IMG/VR virus record: IMGVR_UViG_2778261381_000006
Coordinates: 1-24,768 of that record
Reading direction: 5' to 3' (one strand)
Source of the DNA: a virus
Taxonomy: Duplodnaviria; Heunggongvirae; Uroviricota; Caudoviricetes
DNA: 24,768 nucleotides
Below, piece by piece: positions 12,489-17,239 of this stretch. Under the pieces are notes generated by a model, which did not search any database, was not told the origin of the DNA, and saw nothing but the letters and a program-made list of their open reading frames with translations. Within the stretch, counting starts at the first letter, position 1. Every line of letters starts with the position of its first letter. The position numbers and the translations under genes were made by a program.

Positions 12489-13586
12489 AAAATTTACACG
12501 AATAAGCTCTGTTGATAGACGATCTCCCTTAAATTTGTGGTCAATTTCGTCTAAATCCGGTTGCTCTACGATTGATGCGATGTACGTCGAGAAACTTTCT
12601 AAGGCGTCTCGCATCTCGTCCATATAATCGTGCCGGTCGTAGACCCGATCTATCCCCTCAAGACTGTGGTTCATGATTTTACGTGATACCTCCTGGCTTA
12701 TGCCTAATGCTGGGAAGTAACTACGCGCAGTACGGCGCAAATCTCGGGGTGTAAATGGCTCAAGCTCCATCAGTTCTGGTCGTTCCAGAATACGACGTAA
12801 TGCCTGGGCTATTGCCACTTTAGACATAGGAAGGTCTTTCCCGATTTTTTTATTCGAAGGCACGAGCCACTGGCTGTCTTTACCATATTCGAACAACTCT
12901 TCAATACAAGTGCGCATTAATGAGCTTAAAGGCAGAGAATGCTCACGGGCAGATTTGTTCCTCTTGCCTTGATTCCAAACCCCACGCTTAAGATTGAACT
13001 CACTTTTTTTAGCCCGCAGTACTTCGTCAGGTCGTCTTGCGGATACAAGACATAGCCTGGCCGCCCATTTTGTACCAGCGCACACATTGAAGTAGTCCCA
13101 TATATTCCAGAACACCCATACCTCTGCGTCGGTCAGCTTCCGCTCGCGAGGTGTGGGCTTTGCGCCACCGGCAACTTTGTTAAGTGACATATCGTTTAAC
13201 GGTGACACGTCTATCATCCCCTGGAAGGCGCACCAGCTAAGGAACTGCTTCATCAGAGAGAAAACGCGGCGGCCCATAACAATTTTGCCATCCAGTATTA
13301 GTGGGTTGACCAGTTGGTTCACCATGAACCTATTAATGTCACTTACTTTTACATCGGCAATGTGCGGCAAAACATGTATCAAAATACAATGAACAGCGAT
13401 CTCTGGCCGACGTCTGGTTATCAGCAGAGATAAGCGAGTGAATAACATGAATGCGTCCGAGAATCTCATGTCATTGCTGACCTGGGAGATCATAACGGCC
13501 TGCATTTGAGATGCTCTTTCGAGATACTCTATCGCCTCTTTTGAGGTGTTCTCCGCAGCGCGTGCTCTGTCAAAGCTATTTTTCAT
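12483..13586 (-). CDS. Tyrosine site-specific recombinase (integrase family)
   Basis: Catalytic blocks: ARLCLVSARRPDEVL (Arg I), PRDLRRTARSYF (box II region), NHSLEGIDRVYDRHDY with the nucleophile Tyr. GGTGA RBS before the ATG. Confidence 0.85.
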   Translation of the reverse strand: MKNSFDRARAAENTSKEAIEYLERASQMQAVMISQVSNDMRFSDAFMLFTRLSLLITRRRPEIAVHCILIHVLPHIADVKVSDINRFMVNQLVNPLILDGKIVMGRRVFSLMKQFLSWCAFQGMIDVSPLNDMSLNKVAGGAKPTPRERKLTDAEVWVFWNIWDYFNVCAGTKWAARLCLVSARRPDEVLRAKKSEFNLKRGVWNQGKRNKSAREHSLPLSSLMRTCIEELFEYGKDSQWLVPSNKKIGKDLPMSKVAIAQALRRILERPELMELEPFTPRDLRRTARSYFPALGISQEVSRKIMNHSLEGIDRVYDRHDYMDEMRDALESFSTYIASIVEQPDLDEIDHKFKGDRLSTELIRVNFS

Positions 13587-13613
13587 ATGACAATCACCGA
13601 GTTACGCCGATGC

Positions 13614-13660
13614 ACTGTATAAGTAAACAGTATATTAGGCATAGATTCTTATAGGATCAA
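13614..13660 (-). promoter_or_regulatory. Sigma70 promoter for the recombinase with an overlapping LexA-box-like site
   Basis: On the minus strand: TTGATC (-35, plus 13655-13660), 17-bp spacer, TAATAT (-10, plus 13632-13637). Then CTGTATAAGTAAACAG (plus 13615-13630), which fits CTGT-N8-ACAG, between the -10 and the start codon. Confidence 0.5.
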
Positions 13661-13684
13661 GAGTAAAAGTAACTCATTTTCAGC

Positions 13685-13717
13685 AATGATTCCATACATA
13701 GTAGGTATGGAATCATT
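13685..13717. repeat. Perfect 13-bp inverted repeat with 7-bp spacer (AATGATTCCATAC-ATAGTAG-GTATGGAATCATT)
   Basis: Exact reverse-complement arms at 13685-13697 and 13705-13717, about 25 bp upstream of the recombinase -35. The architecture matches tyrosine-recombinase core sites such as loxP and FRT. Confidence 0.7.
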
Positions 13718-13762
13718 TAGCCGTTGTTTTTTGAATTTTAAGGGAACCAAGCGTGAGTTTGG

Positions 13763-13792
13763 TGGGAACAAAAACGGCTCCTGTGAGCCGTT
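13763..13792 (-). terminator. Intrinsic terminator after the glutaredoxin gene
   Basis: Stem aacggctc / gagccgtt (loop ctgt) followed on the minus strand by TTTTTGTT. Confidence 0.55.
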
Positions 13793-13796
13793 AAAA

Positions 13797-14042
13797 TTAG
13801 AGAGTGGTGACGTATGCAGCCAGTTCTGTGTATCCGCCAATCGGTTGGCCATCGATCAGTACCTGGGGGATAGTCTCTACCGGTTTGCCAACAATTTCGC
13901 TAAGTTTTTCCTTATCGATACCGGCAGTGGTGATGTCGATGTACTCATAATCACCATAGCCGTGTCCCTTTAGTTGTTTCGCCAGCTCGACCGCACGTTT
14001 GCAATATGAGCAGTTATCTCGTCCGTAGATAACGATAGTCAT
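13797..14042 (-). CDS. Glutaredoxin (GrxA-like, CxxC thiol-disulfide oxidoreductase)
   Basis: Active site CSYC near the N-terminus; GKPVETIPQVLIDGQPIGGYTELAAYV closely matches E. coli glutaredoxin 1. Confidence 0.85.
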   Translation of the reverse strand: MTIVIYGRDNCSYCKRAVELAKQLKGHGYGDYEYIDITTAGIDKEKLSEIVGKPVETIPQVLIDGQPIGGYTELAAYVTTL

Positions 14043-14181
14043 GTTTACCTCATAATAATTATGTGTTACTTAACCAGAAAATAAATATTACTATAAAAGA
14101 TAGGTAAGTAAAAACCTATTTAATGTCTGCAATACATCGTAAACTTGCCTGTTAATCACAACTTAATTTAGTTAATATTTA

Positions 14182-15510
14182 ATGCAACTAACAATGGTAA
14201 GTACGAGAGCATACATGCCTGTTTTTATTTCTGTTGCAATTCTAATGTTTTCCATAATAATTTTGTTTTTAGGTTTACTACTTGAGCCATTTCAAGATTG
14301 GAAGGTTACAGACCAAATTGCTGTATTGAGTAGTTTTATAACGACAGCGGCTTTTTGTGCAACAGCGTGGAACGCCTATGAAGCAAGAAAAAGTGCAAAG
14401 GCAGCACTGGAGGCCGTTAGGATAACTACCGATTCATTGATTGAGATGAGAAAAAATTCTTTCAAAGAATGGTTTGACACTTTATTAAATCAGCATGATG
14501 AGTTGTACAATAATGTCATACCAATCATTGAACAGACAAAAAAACAATTTAATAAAAATGAAATGCATTCGTTTTTTTATCCATTGGTAAGAAAGCATGA
14601 GGTTATTCAGTACATAAAACATATTACCAATATATTAGTCTATGTAGATAACCGATTTTACATAGATGGAAATTGTTTTGATGAAAAAATGGAATATATT
14701 ATTCAATTGAGTGGAAAAATACCACCGCAAATGAAGTTGGTTATTGCAGTTTTTGGATTGGACATCGATTCTCGTGAACCGCAGGATTCAAAAAAACTGT
14801 ATGCTTTATTAAATAAATATGATTTTTTCAAAGATGAAATATTCTTTGATGATGCTTATTCAAGCATGCCTGAAGTAGAGCTATTTATAAAGGATAGATT
14901 TGATAAAATATTTAAAACCAAGATGTTAAAATACTTTTGGAACGTGATTAAGGAATATTATTCTCAAGTTGAAGTCAAAGAAATCTGGGTGGTTCGTCGT
15001 CCGCAAGTTGCTTCATCGGTATTAATGAACTACCAAACACCATTATCTGGTTTAATTGATGATTATTTTAAAAATTTGCCAAATGAGGTAAAGAGCATTT
15101 TTGATGAAGCACTAAAAAAAGCTAATGATAGTGTTACGTCTATTGATGACTATATTCATCGTTTGATCGGTTGCAGAGTCGCGTCGATTTCAGAGCATGT
15201 CCATTTCGAAAGTGAAATACTGAGTAGTGAAAAGGATGTGAAGGATATGATTAAAAATTACATAGAGCAAAGAAAAACTGGAAAAAATGCGGTAAATCTT
15301 GGGCAGTTATATTTCTCGAGTGAGTCAGATGTAATTACAGGTGATCAGTTGAGTGATGCGATCGATGAATATGAGAAAAAGTTGGCACTTATGGCAATAA
15401 ACGATAATGATGATAGTGATAACCTATTGTGCCATATCTATATTAAATCATGTGAGATAGTTGATGAATATAAGCGTGAAACATTAAAATTGGGCGAGTA
15501 CGCACAATAG
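14182..15510 (+). CDS. Membrane-anchored protein of unknown function (2 N-terminal TM helices plus ~380-aa soluble domain); candidate exclusion or abortive-infection factor
   Basis: Markedly AT-rich relative to flanks. Hydrophobic segments MPVFISVAILMFSIIILFLGLLL and IAVLSSFITTAAFCATAW. No catalytic motif recognised. True start may be ATG 14215 (weak GAGAG RBS). Confidence 0.65.
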   Translation: MQLTMVSTRAYMPVFISVAILMFSIIILFLGLLLEPFQDWKVTDQIAVLSSFITTAAFCATAWNAYEARKSAKAALEAVRITTDSLIEMRKNSFKEWFDTLLNQHDELYNNVIPIIEQTKKQFNKNEMHSFFYPLVRKHEVIQYIKHITNILVYVDNRFYIDGNCFDEKMEYIIQLSGKIPPQMKLVIAVFGLDIDSREPQDSKKLYALLNKYDFFKDEIFFDDAYSSMPEVELFIKDRFDKIFKTKMLKYFWNVIKEYYSQVEVKEIWVVRRPQVASSVLMNYQTPLSGLIDDYFKNLPNEVKSIFDEALKKANDSVTSIDDYIHRLIGCRVASISEHVHFESEILSSEKDVKDMIKNYIEQRKTGKNAVNLGQLYFSSESDVITGDQLSDAIDEYEKKLALMAINDNDDSDNLLCHIYIKSCEIVDEYKRETLKLGEYAQ

Positions 15511-15523
15511 GTTGTGCAGATTC

Positions 15524-15551
15524 GAAGCCTCTTTAAATTTTGCGCTGAAAA
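15524..15551. repeat. Direct repeat copy 1 (gaagcctctttaaattttgcgctgaaaa)
   Basis: About 28 bp matching 16445-16474 with 2 mismatches; the two copies flank the lipoprotein gene. Confidence 0.6.
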
Positions 15552-15588
15552 TTGTTATTTTACGGTAAGTAACGCTGTTTTCAGCGCA
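15541..15588. other. Large hairpin in the convergent gap (11-bp stem tgcgctgaaaa / ttttcagcgca, 26-nt loop containing a GGTAAGTA motif)
   Basis: Exact 11-bp inverted repeat; the loop contains ttacggtaagtaacg. Confidence 0.5.
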
Positions 15589-15761
15589 TAAATGTCAGTG
15601 AATAATTTGATGCTTGCTGTAACGATGGTACGCTACGTAAAATCCGATATTTATGAGACTGATTGCAGGTAAGGACTTACATAGCGCACAAAAATTGCTG
15701 ATACCAGATGCAATATATGTTTAATGTCAAATTTTAGATAGGGGCGTATACGCCCCTGTCA

Positions 15762-16316
15762 TTATTTTATTTTATCTTCTTCTAAACGAGAAAATTTAAA
15801 TTGTTTATCGGTGATGGTGAGTAGTGTTACACCTTCCTTTTCGTGTAAAAGACCGGCACCGTTTGACACCATAATCAATCTATCCTTCCCTCGAAAGATT
15901 TCATAATATTTACCAGCTCCACAAGTTTTAGTTTCAATACAGTCCATGCCAGATACTGCTTCTCTGTTAAAAACACGATCTTTTGTAGCAACGGGTTTTC
16001 CGTACTCCTTTGTCAGCATTTCACTTATCTGGATGAATGTATACTTACCAACATTACTGGTTAATGACATTTCGACTTTTCCGTCGATCAGGTTGCCATT
16101 CGTATGCGGTTCTTTTTCAGTCGGACTATTTTTATCTTGAAGAATAAACACTTCAACATTTTGTGTTAGCTTCTTGAATTGGGCTTTATAATTTTGTTCA
16201 AGTTCACTTTTATCTTTGCCTATTAACGTTAATTCATCTATTTCAGATTCGTTACACCCTGTTAGTGTTAACGCAATTATTAGAGATGCGAAAATATTGA
16301 GATGGCACTTCTTCAT
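15762..16316 (-). CDS. Lipoprotein of unknown function
   Basis: Signal peptide with lipobox LTLTG-C (MKKCHLNIFASLIIALTLTGC). GGAGA RBS. AT-rich. Confidence 0.7.
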   Translation of the reverse strand: MKKCHLNIFASLIIALTLTGCNESEIDELTLIGKDKSELEQNYKAQFKKLTQNVEVFILQDKNSPTEKEPHTNGNLIDGKVEMSLTSNVGKYTFIQISEMLTKEYGKPVATKDRVFNREAVSGMDCIETKTCGAGKYYEIFRGKDRLIMVSNGAGLLHEKEGVTLLTITDKQFKFSRLEEDKIK

Positions 16317-16430
16317 TAATTTGTCTCCATGTTTAACTGCTGCGATCTAATCAGGAACATGAAGGCAGTCTAACGCTGCCTCGGATCAAAGCGATAAAAC
16401 GATACGTGAATATAACTAAGTGTCAACAAA

Positions 16431-16474
16431 TCAAAAAAGGGGCCGAAGCCCCTTTGAATTTTGCGCTGAAAAAA
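16431..16474. terminator. Bidirectional intrinsic terminator plus direct repeat copy 2
   Basis: Stem aaaggggc / gccccttt (loop cgaa) at 16436-16455, flanked by an A-tract upstream and T-tract downstream. Sits downstream of the minus-strand tRNA cluster. Confidence 0.65.
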
Positions 16475-16609
16475 GTGTTGCTAGGATGTTAGCAAGCTAT
16501 GGTTAAGAACGTCTGCCGTAATTGTCTATCACAGCGTTGAGCGGTCTGGTTTATGTTAGCGGAGTCTTAATCTGGTTGATTAAAAGGCCAAACCGCTCAA
16601 CGCTGTGTC

Positions 16610-16696
16610 TGGCGGAGAGTAATGGAATCGAACCATCATCGTTTGCACAATGGGACGGTTTTCAAGACCGCTTGAGCACCATGCTCCCTACTCTCC
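16610..16696 (-). tRNA. tRNA-Ser (anticodon UGA), type II with long variable arm
   Basis: Manual fold: acceptor GGAGAGU/ACUCUCC, anticodon stem-loop GCGGU-CUUGAAA-ACCGU, T-arm GAUGG-UUCGAUU-CCAUU, encoded CCA. The D-arm is irregular. Confidence 0.7.
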
Positions 16697-16990
16697 AATT
16701 GTGTTGTGTGCTCCGTTTCGTGGAGCTAACGGCGGGTGATCAGACCGCACCAGGTTGGACGTATTTCAGCGTTATGCTGTTGCAAGAGAGCCAAATTGTG
16801 ATGGCCGGTGCTGATCTCCGGCATTGCCTACGTTAGCGGCCTTCAGGCAGTTCATCCGCTTGCTTCTACGTCGCACATCAGCCTGTGCATTCACCACAAT
16901 GTTGAGAACACTGGTTGTCACGCTGCAACGCAACATTATATTCATAAATTGGGATATGAACCCGTTACGCCAATGTTCTCAATATTATGT

Positions 16991-17066
16991 TGGTGCCGGT
17001 TAACGGACTTGAACCGCTGGCCATTTGCTTACAAAGCGACTGCTCTACCAACTGAGCTAAACCGGC
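16991..17066 (-). tRNA. tRNA-Thr (anticodon UGU), anticodon stem with two mismatches
   Basis: Acceptor GCCGGUU/AACCGGC, D-arm GCUC-AGUUGGUA-GAGC, T-arm AGCGG-UUCAAGU-CCGUU, encoded CCA. Anticodon loop UUUGUAA, but the stem GUCGC/GCAAA pairs at only 3 of 5 positions. Confidence 0.5.
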
Positions 17067-17070
17067 AATT

Positions 17071-17157
17071 TGGTGGGGAGTGATGGAGTCGAACCACCCG
17101 AGTCGCAATGACAGTAGATTTACAGTCTACACCGCTACCTCTACGGACTAACTCCCC
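17071..17157 (-). tRNA. tRNA-Tyr (anticodon GUA), type II
   Basis: Acceptor GGGGAGU/ACUCCCC, anticodon arm GUAGA-CUGUAAA-UCUAC, T-arm GGUGG-UUCGACU-CCAUC, long variable arm, encoded CCA. Confidence 0.7.
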
Positions 17158-17162
17158 TAAAT

Positions 17163-17237
17163 TGGCGATGGTGGGTGGATTCGAACCACCGACCAGTTGG
17201 TTAACAGCCAACTGCTCTACCGCTGAGCTACACCATC
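17163..17237 (-). tRNA. tRNA-Asn (anticodon GUU)
   Basis: Canonical cloverleaf: acceptor GAUGGUG/CACCAUC, D-arm GCUC-AGCGGUA-GAGC, anticodon arm GUUGG-CUGUUAA-CCAAC, T-arm GGUGG-UUCGAAU-CCACC, encoded CCA. Confidence 0.8.
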
Positions 17238-17239
17238 AA

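What the first reader, a model, noticed from the sequence alone, without database searches (positions are those of the whole stretch)
14043..15761. AT-rich island encoding a 2-TM, 442-aa protein with no recognisable domain
Base composition drops sharply against ~45-50% GC flanks, the signature of a recently acquired gene. The protein has two N-terminal TM helices and a ~380-aa K/D/E/Y/F-rich soluble domain with no catalytic motif I can recognise. It sits between glutaredoxin and a lipoprotein gene, near a recombinase and the tRNA cluster, and is bracketed by GGTAAGTA motifs and hairpins. Membrane-anchored standalone proteins in such hotspots are often abortive-infection or superinfection-exclusion effectors.
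Basis: partly seen in the sequence, partly recalled or inferred. Interest (0 to 1): 0.7.

Follow-up and report, generated by a model that had tools for sequence, protein, structure and literature searches.

The report
Divergent AbiC/AbiP-like membrane protein, phage-plasmid hotspot
The AT-rich gene is a real, membrane-anchored accessory protein of an SSU5-like E. coli phage-plasmid, and it is a very diverged relative of the lactococcal AbiC/AbiP abortive-infection proteins sitting in a swap-in cargo slot, so it is most likely an anti-phage gene that standard annotation tools miss.

Summary
An AT-rich island (gene 32.6% GC against 45.6% for the rest of the window) carries a + strand ORF. Its true start is probably 14215, giving 431 aa rather than 442. 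It has an N-terminal helical hairpin and a helical cytoplasmic domain of about 375 aa.

Direct scans of Pfam, NCBIfam, PADLOC and PDB find nothing. An exhaustive profile search finds 85 relatives. Of 62 full-length ones, 49 hit Pfam PF16872 (putAbiC), 9 hit the PADLOC AbiC model and 6 hit AbiP. A profile-profile comparison with PF16872-positive members gives probability 100%, E 1e-42.

The window is an SSU5-like phage-plasmid. The gene lies in a variable slot between the grxA start and a conserved terminator. Relatives carry other cargo there:
- alleles only 30-56% identical
- a nuclease-like defence candidate
- a Gp49 protein
- an unrelated 300-aa family

About 21% of SSU5-type plasmids carry a family member. 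No chromosome and no deposited phage genome does.

TM2, the stalk and the putAbiC core are conserved, while the C-terminal half is hypervariable. This allele has lost most polar residues that are near-invariant in mainstream putAbiC proteins.

Best reading: a single-gene AbiC/AbiP-type abortive-infection protein. Homology is firm; function is inferred. Novelty: new member of a known kind. Interest is moderate.

The parts
14055..16435 (.). Variable cargo slot of the phage-plasmid backbone. It holds two cassettes here.
   Evidence: Homology with relatives breaks at 14054 on the left and resumes at 16432-16436 on the right. The same right border is seen in six other plasmids carrying different cargo.
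13797..14042 (-). GrxA-family glutaredoxin gene, forming the left border of the slot
   Evidence: Pfam PF00462 at 6.5e-11. NCBIfam GrxA at 109 bits against a cut-off of 84.
14070..14097 (+). Candidate sigma-70 promoter, TTAACC-N16-TATAAA. This is inferred by eye only.
   Evidence: Read from the sequence. The tool's stricter consensus scan did not list it.
14215..15510 (+). Coding sequence of the 431-aa AbiC/AbiP-like (putAbiC-superfamily) protein, stop codon included. The ORF is open from 14182.
   Evidence: dN/dS among close alleles of the family is 0.24-0.33.
14218..14283 (+). TM1 (res 2-23)
   Evidence: Kyte-Doolittle up to 2.99. Modelled as helix 2-22.
14314..14499 (+). TM2 (res 34-55) plus the juxtamembrane stalk (res 56-95), with the family hallmark ATAWNAYEARKSAKAA. 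This is the best-conserved segment.
   Evidence: 58-71% identity even to alleles that are 15-25% identical in the C-terminal half. Invariant columns are listed. It forms part of the continuous helix 31-111.
14587..14844 (+). Region equivalent to the Pfam putAbiC domain (about res 125-210)
   Evidence: P0008 matches PF16872 at residues 132-207. The hydrophobic core is kept, but most family-conserved polar residues are replaced.
14845..15507 (+). Hypervariable C-terminal half (res 211-431), the proposed specificity or sensor part
   Evidence: 15-57% identity between alleles. In the 420-aa alleles, residues 196-420 give dN/dS 0.36-0.55 against 0.04-0.13 for residues 1-85.
15520..15551 (+). Relic copy of the slot's right border, forming a 29-nt direct repeat with 16444-16472
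   Evidence: Repeat D2 at 93% identity. Relatives have a single border copy.
15538..15591 (.). Inverted repeat (14-nt arms, 26-nt loop) just downstream of the stop codon. One GGTAAGTA lies in its loop.
   Evidence: (I9).
15737..15760 (.). G+C-rich hairpin between the two convergent genes, terminator-like
   Evidence: 10 pairs, followed by a T-rich tail; I13.
15762..16316 (-). 184-aa lipoprotein gene, a separate second cassette (15552-16435)
   Evidence: Lipobox LTLTGC. PHROG 15156, function unknown. It is absent from pLAU-OXA1. It is present without the AbiC-like gene in pIso00225_02, at 75% aa identity.
16430..16472 (.). Conserved right border: the terminator hairpin AAAAAAGGGGCCGAAGCCCCTTT followed by GAATTTTGCGCTGAAAA

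Best explanation
The gene encodes a stand-alone, inner-membrane-anchored protein of the AbiC/AbiP (Pfam putAbiC) superfamily. It is carried as exchangeable cargo by an SSU5-like phage-plasmid.

Proposed working, with each step marked:
1. The gene is transcribed on its own, on the strand opposite to its neighbours. Orientation is shown; the promoter is inferred.
2. An N-terminal helical hairpin inserts with both ends in the cytoplasm. The loop has net charge -2, and four K/R follow TM2. This is predicted.
3. The helical domain of about 375 aa therefore sits in the cytoplasm on a long stalk helix. This is predicted at pLDDT 89.
4. By analogy with lactococcal AbiP and AbiC, the protein is harmless until an infecting phage makes a particular late or structural protein. 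It then aborts the infection. TM2, the stalk and the putAbiC core would act as the effector or scaffold. The effector action could be nucleic-acid binding, as in AbiP, or a membrane lesion. The hypervariable C-terminal half would set which phage is recognised. All of this step is inferred.

The benefit to the phage-plasmid would be protection of its lysogen from competing phages.
For: Homology:
- The family profile finds 85 representatives at E<=1e-3 in 1.84 billion proteins. Nearly all full-length ones are 416-499 aa and match the profile from near its first position.
- Of 62 full-length members, 49 hit PF16872 putAbiC. All 10 distant members tested exceed its gathering score, at 25.7-38.3 bits against 22.
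- Of the same 62, 9 hit PADLOC AbiC and 6 hit AbiP.
- hhalign of the close family against PF16872-positive members gives probability 100%, E 1.2e-42 over 337 columns.
- NCBI names relatives in Pantoea, Cedecea and Pectobacterium 'putative phage abortive infection protein'.

Real gene: dN/dS is 0.24-0.33 among close 420-aa alleles of the family.

Hotspot and accessory status:
- Alternative cargos sit in the same slot. One is a 262-aa protein hitting PADLOC PDC-M68A (5.7e-25) and endonuclease-effector models.
- The flanks are 97.6% identical to pLAU-OXA1, but the gene is only 67.8% identical and its 5' end cannot be aligned.
- Carriage is 139 of about 650 SSU5-type plasmids. It is found in 56 of 5,426 complete E. 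coli genomes, always on plasmids.

Conservation gradient: conserved N-terminal module and variable C-terminal half.

Precedent: AbiP needs its TM anchor, binds RNA in preference to ssDNA, and is triggered by a phage major tail protein. AbiC lowers major capsid protein production (PMC13064643, PMC12184496).
Against: - No phenotype has been tested.
- The window protein itself matches neither PF16872 (nothing at E<=10) nor any PADLOC model.
- It has replaced most polar residues that are near-invariant in mainstream putAbiC proteins: S131, H139, R166, S167, N171, D172, N180 and H207. It keeps H94 and a conservative K135. If those residues form the active site, this clade works differently or not at all.
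- Only two members of the superfamily, both lactococcal, have experimental support. A 38%-identical AbiC-like protein gave no resistance against the phages tested in Lactococcus (PMC11381338).
- I could not obtain the lactococcal AbiC or AbiP sequences to compare directly.
- The mechanism of AbiC/AbiP itself is unsolved.
Confidence: 0.6

Rival explanations
1. Superinfection exclusion at the envelope. The hairpin and stalk would block DNA entry or receptor function of incoming phages without killing the cell, perhaps together with the neighbouring lipoprotein, in the manner of prophage Sie, Imm, Cor or Llp proteins.
For: It is a membrane-anchored protein encoded by a temperate element. TM2 and the juxtamembrane segment are the best-conserved part. 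A lipoprotein cassette lies next to it.
Against: Most of the protein is a cytoplasmic domain homologous to AbiC/AbiP-type proteins, which act after DNA entry. The lipoprotein is a separate, later-added cassette. It is absent from most plasmids that carry the family and present without it elsewhere.
Confidence: 0.15
2. A degenerate or functionally drifted relic of a putAbiC gene that no longer defends, kept only by hitch-hiking in the slot.
For: Most family-conserved polar residues are lost. The family HMMs do not recognise it. A lactococcal AbiC-like protein was inactive against the phages tested.
Against: The open reading frames are intact and full-length in every locus inspected, and 122 of the 139 plasmid hits cover at least 80% of the protein. 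Purifying selection acts on the close 420-aa alleles, with dN/dS 0.24-0.33 overall and 0.04-0.13 in the N-terminal module. The clade has its own invariant residues, including W52, E56, K62, Y143, D145, Q164, N200 and G319. The AlphaFold model is confident at pLDDT 89.
Confidence: 0.1
3. A membrane-acting toxin or other plasmid-benefit function, such as post-segregational killing or competition with other mobile elements, rather than phage defence.
For: A YafO toxin gene lies between the recombinase gene and grxA in relatives, just left of this slot. The gene is found only on phage-plasmids, never on chromosomes, in E. coli.
Against: No partner antitoxin gene travels with it. The alleles sit alone next to grxA. 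Its homology points to the Abi-named family.
Confidence: 0.1
4. A core phage function (lysis, morphogenesis or replication) of the SSU5-like phage.
For: A weak PHROG hit to a tape-measure family (E 3e-4, 20 bits).
Against: The gene is absent from about 79% of SSU5-type plasmids and from all 50,697 deposited phage genomes, including the close relatives Cyrano and CMS-2020a. Unrelated genes replace it at the same site. The tape-measure hit is the kind that low-complexity helical sequence produces.
Confidence: 0.03

Closest known systems
Lactococcus lactis AbiC (Prf; Durmaz et al. 1992), grouped with AbiP as 'AbiC/P' in PMC13064643
   Same: Both are single-gene systems carried on a mobile element. 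Both have two N-terminal TM helices followed by an all-helical domain with no assignable fold. Relatives of the window protein match the PADLOC AbiC model, with a best E of 1.3e-6.
   Different: The window protein does not match the AbiC model. I estimate it to be about 90 aa longer than AbiC; the AbiC length is from my memory, not from a tool result. It sits in a Gram-negative phage-plasmid. The phenotype (AbiC lowers major capsid protein production) is untested here.
Lactococcus lactis AbiP (Domingues et al. 2004, 2008; trigger identified in PMC12184496)
   Same: Both have a membrane anchor plus a cytoplasmic helical domain. Six of 62 relatives match the PADLOC AbiP model over the same core region that matches AbiC.
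   Different: AbiP has one TM helix and is much shorter (the PADLOC profile is 223 positions). Its nucleic-acid binding and major-tail-protein trigger are known only for AbiP and are assumed here only by analogy.
Pfam PF16872 putAbiC proteins of Enterobacterales, named 'putative phage abortive infection protein' (e.g. Pantoea WP_161569778, Cedecea WP_336819259, Pectobacterium WP_104212255)
   Same: Same length class and same order of parts. The TM2/stalk hallmark T..A..ATAW.A.EA..SAKAA is shared, as are the LL.QH and FDFF motifs. The A1 profile hits the Pantoea protein at E 4e-35.
   Different: Mainstream members keep a near-invariant polar set (S, R, H, R, S, N, D, N, H). The window allele has lost nearly all of it. 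They sit in other plasmids or in chromosomes rather than in the SSU5 slot.
Defence hotspots of temperate phages and satellites (P2/P4-type cargo slots; PMC13586616 was seen only as a title and abstract)
   Same: A fixed site bounded by conserved backbone sequence holds alternative, often AT-rich, defence-type cargo.
   Different: This slot is in an SSU5-type phage-plasmid, between the grxA start and a terminator upstream of the tRNA cluster. The one survey I read (bioRxiv 10.1101/2025.09.12.675607) lists other systems for SSU5 elements and no AbiC.

Membership tests
Pfam PF16872 (putAbiC) | The protein scores at or above the curated gathering threshold (22 bits) against the family HMM | tested here: not met
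   The window protein gets no PF16872 hit even at E<=10. Of 62 relatives, 49 hit at E<=0.01. All 10 distant ones tested score 25.7-38.3 bits. The 31%-identical E. coli allele P0008 scores exactly 22.0.
Pfam PF16872 (putAbiC) | Homology across the domain to bona fide (HMM-positive) members | tested here: met
   hhalign of A1 against A3 gives probability 100%, E 1.2e-42 over 337 aligned columns, including the domain region. hmmsearch E-values to these members range from 5e-45 to 7e-16 across 1.84 billion proteins.
Pfam PF16872 (putAbiC) | The near-invariant polar residues of the mainstream family (window numbering H94, S131, R135, H139, R166, S167, N171, D172, N180, H207) | tested here: not met
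   Only H94 is kept, with K in place of R135. The others are replaced by I, N, S, G, P, Q, F and D.
AbiC/P group (lactococcal AbiC and AbiP) | N-terminal TM anchor (two helices in AbiC, one in AbiP) followed by a helical soluble domain | tested here: met
   Hydropathy and charge distribution. AlphaFold model at pLDDT 89.1 with helices 2-22 and 31-111, then a helical domain.
AbiC/P group (lactococcal AbiC and AbiP) | Sequence match to AbiC or AbiP themselves | tested here: inconclusive
   The PADLOC AbiC and AbiP models do not hit the window protein. They do hit 9 and 6 of its 62 relatives, with best E-values 1.3e-6 and 1.1e-4. The lactococcal sequences could not be retrieved for a direct comparison.
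AbiC/P group (lactococcal AbiC and AbiP) | Acts alone, as a single-gene system | tested here: met
   No constant neighbour. Alleles occur with grxA only, with or without the lipoprotein gene, and beside different genes in Klebsiella.
AbiC/P group (lactococcal AbiC and AbiP) | Abortive-infection phenotype, meaning reduced plaquing after normal adsorption and DNA entry | not testable with these tools
   This needs expression and phage challenge.
AbiC/P group (lactococcal AbiC and AbiP) | Non-specific RNA/ssDNA binding by the soluble domain (known for AbiP) | not testable with these tools
   The soluble part has net charge -14, which does not suggest a general nucleic-acid binder but does not exclude a local site.
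Pfam Abi_C (PF14355; HEPN RNase of AbiJ/SadR), similar in name only | Abi_C/HEPN domain with the R-x(4-6)-H motif | tested here: not met
   No such Pfam hit for the window protein, and Abi_C is not among the seven families that any of the 62 relatives hit. The family is described in PMC13590631.
SLATT 2-TM effector domains (PF18181) | Significant match to a SLATT model over the 2-TM region | tested here: not met
   The only trace is E 0.23 (12 bits against a cut-off of 26.3) in one relative, P0011.

The most novel reading that the evidence does not exclude
The SSU5-plasmid clade would be a functionally distinct offshoot of the AbiC/AbiP scaffold.

- It has discarded the polar site conserved in mainstream putAbiC proteins.
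- It keeps an almost invariant TM2-stalk module, which would be the real effector, for example an oligomerising membrane lesion.
- It carries a hypervariable C-terminal half that directly reads phage structural proteins.

The alleles at this one slot (99%, 56% and 30-34% identical, inside backbones that are 95-98% identical) would then form a natural allelic series of immune receptors. That series would offer an E. coli-tractable route to the AbiC/AbiP mechanism, which has been unsolved since 1992.
Probability: 0.3. Interest if true: 0.65.

Novelty: new member of a known kind. Interest (0 to 1): 0.42.

Why it matters
AbiC and AbiP were among the first abortive-infection genes described, and how they stop phage is still unknown. 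All experimental work has been done in Lactococcus.

This finding has three consequences if the inference holds.

1. It places a large, strongly diversified branch of the same superfamily in the SSU5-type phage-plasmids of E. coli, Klebsiella, Enterobacter and Salmonella. Genetics, phage panels and structural work are easy in these hosts.
2. Pfam, NCBIfam and PADLOC models do not recognise this allele. The one DefenseFinder-based survey of SSU5 elements that I read reports no AbiC. Defence content of these clinically common plasmids may therefore be under-counted.
3. It defines a precise cargo slot, from the grxA start to a conserved terminator. The other unannotated occupants of that slot, such as the 298/302-aa family, are candidate new defence genes.

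Tried and rejected
Searches that found nothing for the window protein:
- Direct scans of Pfam, NCBIfam, PADLOC and PDB sequences gave nothing usable. The weak hits (phospholipase A2 at E 0.025, MG319/MPN454 at E 0.004 and 17 bits against a cut-off of 60, DUF1796 at E 0.066) lie below any threshold and fall on helical or TM segments.
- The PHROG tape-measure hit (E 3e-4) was rejected as a helical-composition artefact.

Attempts to reach the lactococcal proteins:
- The second word-indexed protein search, run with the 62-sequence alignment, added nothing.
- tblastn with two putAbiC-positive relatives against PLSDB found no Lactococcus record.
- The NAR plasmidome paper (PMC11381338) has no supplements held, and the review text I searched gives no AbiC or AbiP accession.

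Other leads dropped:
- 'AbiC' in PMC13590631 turned out to be the unrelated Abi_C/HEPN domain.
- The PADLOC PD-T4-4_B hit of one relative (E 3.6e-4) was not pursued. PD-T4-4 is listed with ATPase and PD-(D/E)xK nuclease domains.
- GGTAAGTA as a functional site: enrichment is nominal, with no common context and no conservation in the sister locus. I leave it unexplained rather than call it a site.
- Rfam finds only the tRNAs in 13500-17400.
- 'Recent acquisition' inferred from low GC is rejected as stated, because low GC is a trait of the whole family and of other cargo in this slot.
Full report
**1. What is in the sequence**

The window is part of an SSU5-like phage-plasmid of E. coli.
- The 7 kb around the finding matches Escherichia phages Cyrano and CMS-2020a at about 97%, but only over about 60% of its length.
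- It matches three PLSDB plasmids of about 110 kb at 99.8-99.9% over the whole island.
- The neighbouring genes fit this backbone: a DnaE-type polymerase, an AAA protein, CobT, a repressor-like HTH protein, a tyrosine recombinase, GrxA glutaredoxin, four tRNAs and an ATP-dependent DNA ligase.

All ten database homologs start 'MP' aligned to the ATG at 14215, and RefSeq annotates the identical gene from there. The protein is therefore most likely 431 aa.

The GC content of 400-nt windows drops to 0.29-0.35 over the gene, against 0.42-0.51 outside. The gene is 0.326 GC and the rest of the window 0.456. The low-GC tract continues through the downstream lipoprotein gene to about 16400.

**2. The protein**

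- Residues 2-23 are a strongly hydrophobic helix.
- Residues 34-55 are moderately hydrophobic. They are the start of the best-conserved stretch of the family.
- The loop between them has net charge -2, and four K/R follow TM2. This predicts an N-in/C-in hairpin with the remaining 375 residues or so in the cytoplasm.
- With an 11-sequence alignment AlphaFold gave pLDDT 73.5. With the 62-sequence alignment it gave pLDDT 89.1 and pTM 0.78. That model has helix 2-22, one continuous helix 31-111 (TM2 plus a long stalk), then a mostly helical domain with a small three-stranded element near residues 321-375.

**3. What it is related to**

Direct scans of Pfam, NCBIfam, PADLOC and PDB sequences are empty. 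PHROGs places it in phrog_18168, of unknown function. The word-indexed search of 5.8 billion proteins finds only ten clusters, at 99%, 55-56% and 30-34% identity; those that carry a source name are from E. coli.

A profile of these, searched exhaustively against 1.84 billion representatives, finds 85 proteins at E<=1e-3. Almost all full-length ones are 416-499 aa and match the profile from near its first position. The links to named families are:
- Of 62 full-length members, 49 match Pfam PF16872 'putAbiC, putative phage abortive infection protein'.
- All ten distant members I checked individually exceed its gathering score.
- 9 members match the PADLOC AbiC model and 6 the AbiP model, over the same core region.
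- Profile-profile comparison of the close family with ten PF16872-positive members gives probability 100%, E 1.2e-42 over 337 columns, covering residues 26-371 of the window protein.
- NCBI names relatives in Pantoea, Cedecea and Pectobacterium 'putative phage abortive infection protein'. The close-family HMM hits the Pantoea protein at E 4e-35.

Homology to the putAbiC superfamily is therefore secure, although no single-sequence scan shows it.

**4. How this clade differs**

Across the 48 more distant members, a set of polar residues is 85-100% conserved. In window numbering these are H94, S131, R135, H139, R166, S167, N171, D172, N180 and H207. The window protein keeps only H94, plus K at position 135. 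The hydrophobic core (Y133, L141, Y161, I169, A178, L199, F204, F205) and the TM2/stalk hallmark (ATAW.A.EA..SAKAA) are retained. This explains why the family HMMs miss it. It also leaves open that the clade works differently.

**5. The locus**

Comparison with relatives defines a cargo slot.
- On the left, homology with pLAU-OXA1 ends at 14054, twelve bases beyond the grxA start.
- On the right, homology resumes at about 16432, at a terminator hairpin (AAAAAAGGGGCCGAAGCCCCTTTGAATTTTGCGCTGAAAA). This hairpin is the common right border in all seven relatives examined.
- In the window, a degenerate second copy of that border lies directly after the gene's stop. It forms a 29-nt direct repeat, 15523-15551 with 16444-16472, at 93% identity.
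- The gene therefore once abutted the border, as its 420-aa allele still does in pLAU-OXA1. The lipoprotein cassette (15552-16435) was added later.

The same slot holds different cargo in other plasmids:

| Cargo | Example |
|---|---|
| 420-aa or 432-aa allele of this family | pLAU-OXA1, pAMPD01, two E. albertii plasmids |
| 116-aa Gp49-family protein | Cyrano, pMTY12368_pLF82 |
| 262-aa protein matching PADLOC PDC-M68A (5.7e-25) and endonuclease-effector models, plus a lipoprotein 75% identical to the window's | pIso00225_02 |
| Unrelated 298/302-aa family, 56% identical to each other and 0.29-0.31 GC | pMRY16-002_2, pLR-60_2 |

In Klebsiella pKPN1402_2 a family member again lies just upstream of the tRNA and ligase region, with phoH and gp49 between it and grxA.

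**6. Distribution and selection**

- tblastn finds a family member in 139 PLSDB plasmids: Escherichia 72, Klebsiella 37, Enterobacter 18, Salmonella 6, Pantoea 3, Citrobacter 2 and one from an uncultured bacterium. 119 of the 139 are typed non-mobilizable, and most of the rows listed are 100-115 kb.
- The backbone ligase is found in about 650 plasmids, so carriage is about 21%.
- None of 50,697 deposited phage genomes has it.
- Among 5,426 complete E. coli genomes, 56 carry it, always on a plasmid. Five carry this exact allele.
- The flanks of the window and pLAU-OXA1 are 97.6% identical, but the genes are 67.8% identical where alignable, and TM1 and the upstream region cannot be aligned. This is allele replacement, not divergence in place.
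- Among close 420-aa alleles, dN/dS is 0.24-0.33. It is 0.04-0.13 in residues 1-85 and 0.36-0.55 in residues 196-420.
- Identity of distant alleles to the window protein is 58-71% in TM2 plus stalk, 37-40% in the putAbiC core and 15-25% in the C-terminal half.
- All alleles are AT-rich (0.31-0.36 GC), even in Pantoea. Low GC is thus a trait of the family, not a sign of recent arrival.

**7. Most likely function**

Shown: homology to the AbiC/AbiP-putAbiC superfamily; a stand-alone gene on the opposite strand to its neighbours; an accessory, exchangeable position; purifying selection with a conserved N-terminal module and a variable C-terminal half.

Predicted: hairpin topology with a cytoplasmic domain.

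Inferred by analogy with AbiP and AbiC: the protein is inert in the lysogen, is triggered by a late or structural protein of an infecting phage, and then aborts the infection.
- AbiP's TM anchor is essential. AbiP binds RNA in preference to ssDNA and is triggered by a major tail protein.
- AbiC reduces capsid protein production.
- The conserved TM2-stalk-core module would execute the response, and the variable C-terminal half would set specificity.

I put 0.6 on this. The rivals are non-abortive exclusion at the membrane (0.15), an inactive relic (0.1), a toxin or other plasmid-benefit role (0.1) and a core phage function (0.03).

**8.

GGTAAGTA occurs five times in the window against 0.44 expected. 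Once the choice of 8-mer is allowed for, the excess in the island is marginal, at 11 of 300 shuffles. The sites share no context, and the motif is missing from the sister locus. I do not assign it a function.

The hairpins are real. One is the relic-border inverted repeat, one a terminator between the convergent genes, and one the slot's border terminator. Rfam finds only the tRNAs.

**9. Verdict**

The gene is a new, unannotated and strongly diverged member of a known kind, the AbiC/AbiP-type single-gene abortive-infection proteins. It sits in a newly delimited cargo slot of SSU5-type phage-plasmids. Interest is moderate. It is not a new class, but it offers a tractable E. coli entry to a mechanism that is still unsolved, and it shows that defence content of these plasmids is under-called.

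Noticed in passing
window 13685-13717: A near-perfect palindrome with 13-7-13 architecture, AATGATTCCATAC-ATAGTAG-GTATGGAATCATT. It lies about 100 nt upstream of the tyrosine recombinase start (13586, - strand). It is present in all three relatives compared, and homology with phage Cyrano breaks at 13735, right beside it. It looks like a lox/dif-type core site for the adjacent recombinase, possibly for dimer resolution or cassette exchange.
   Followed up: partly
window 15552-16435 (CDS 15762-16316, - strand): A separate cassette encoding a 184-aa lipoprotein (lipobox LTLTGC, phrog_15156, no Pfam, PADLOC or NCBIfam family). It is bounded by a 29-nt direct repeat of the slot border. A copy 75% identical sits beside a nuclease-like defence candidate in pIso00225_02. 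The nucleotide search also matched this gene's coordinates at 77% in a Citrobacter freundii plasmid. It may be a surface-exclusion lipoprotein.
   Followed up: partly
L008:2004-2912 (+) and L010:919-1815 (+), same slot as window 14055-16435: A second, unrelated allelic family occupies the slot in other plasmids, as proteins of 302 and 298 aa. They are 56% identical to each other, 0.29-0.31 GC, and have no Pfam or PADLOC match. Their diversification pattern matches that of the AbiC-like family, so this is a candidate unknown defence gene.
   Followed up: partly
L007:981-1769 (-), same slot: A 262-aa protein matches the PADLOC candidate PDC-M68A (E 5.7e-25) and the N-terminal region of the endonuclease-effector, SAVED-HNH and SduA models. 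RefSeq annotates it only as hypothetical.
   Followed up: no
between window 13735 and 13797 (L001:3736-4616; L008:461-1489): A second variable slot lies between the palindrome and the 3' end of grxA. Cyrano has a 184-aa hypothetical protein there. pLR-60_2 and the Klebsiella plasmid have a YafO-family toxin plus a protein of about 200 aa.
   Followed up: no
window 16610-17237: The tRNA cluster here is Ser(tga)-Thr(tgt)-Tyr(gta)-Asn(gtt). Phage Cyrano's annotation lists only Ser, Thr and Asn, and the stretch 16697-16970 does not align with relatives. The tRNA array itself therefore varies between close phage-plasmids.
   Followed up: no
window 16530-16607: A strong inverted repeat (20-nt arms, 95% complementary, 38-nt loop) lies directly downstream of tRNA-Ser on the - strand. 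It may be a terminator or a processing structure.
   Followed up: no
window 9397, 14103, 14196, 15564 (+) and 16042 (-): GGTAAGTA occurs five times against 0.44 expected, four of them in the AT-rich island. The sites share no flanking context, and the motif is absent from the locus with the 420-aa allele. It remains unexplained.
   Followed up: partly
protein P0043 (Cedecea putAbiC protein), residues 67-234: A weak match (E 3.6e-4) covers almost the whole PADLOC PD-T4-4_B profile (34-205 of 206). This hints that a component of an E. coli system with experimental support may share the putAbiC core.
   Followed up: no
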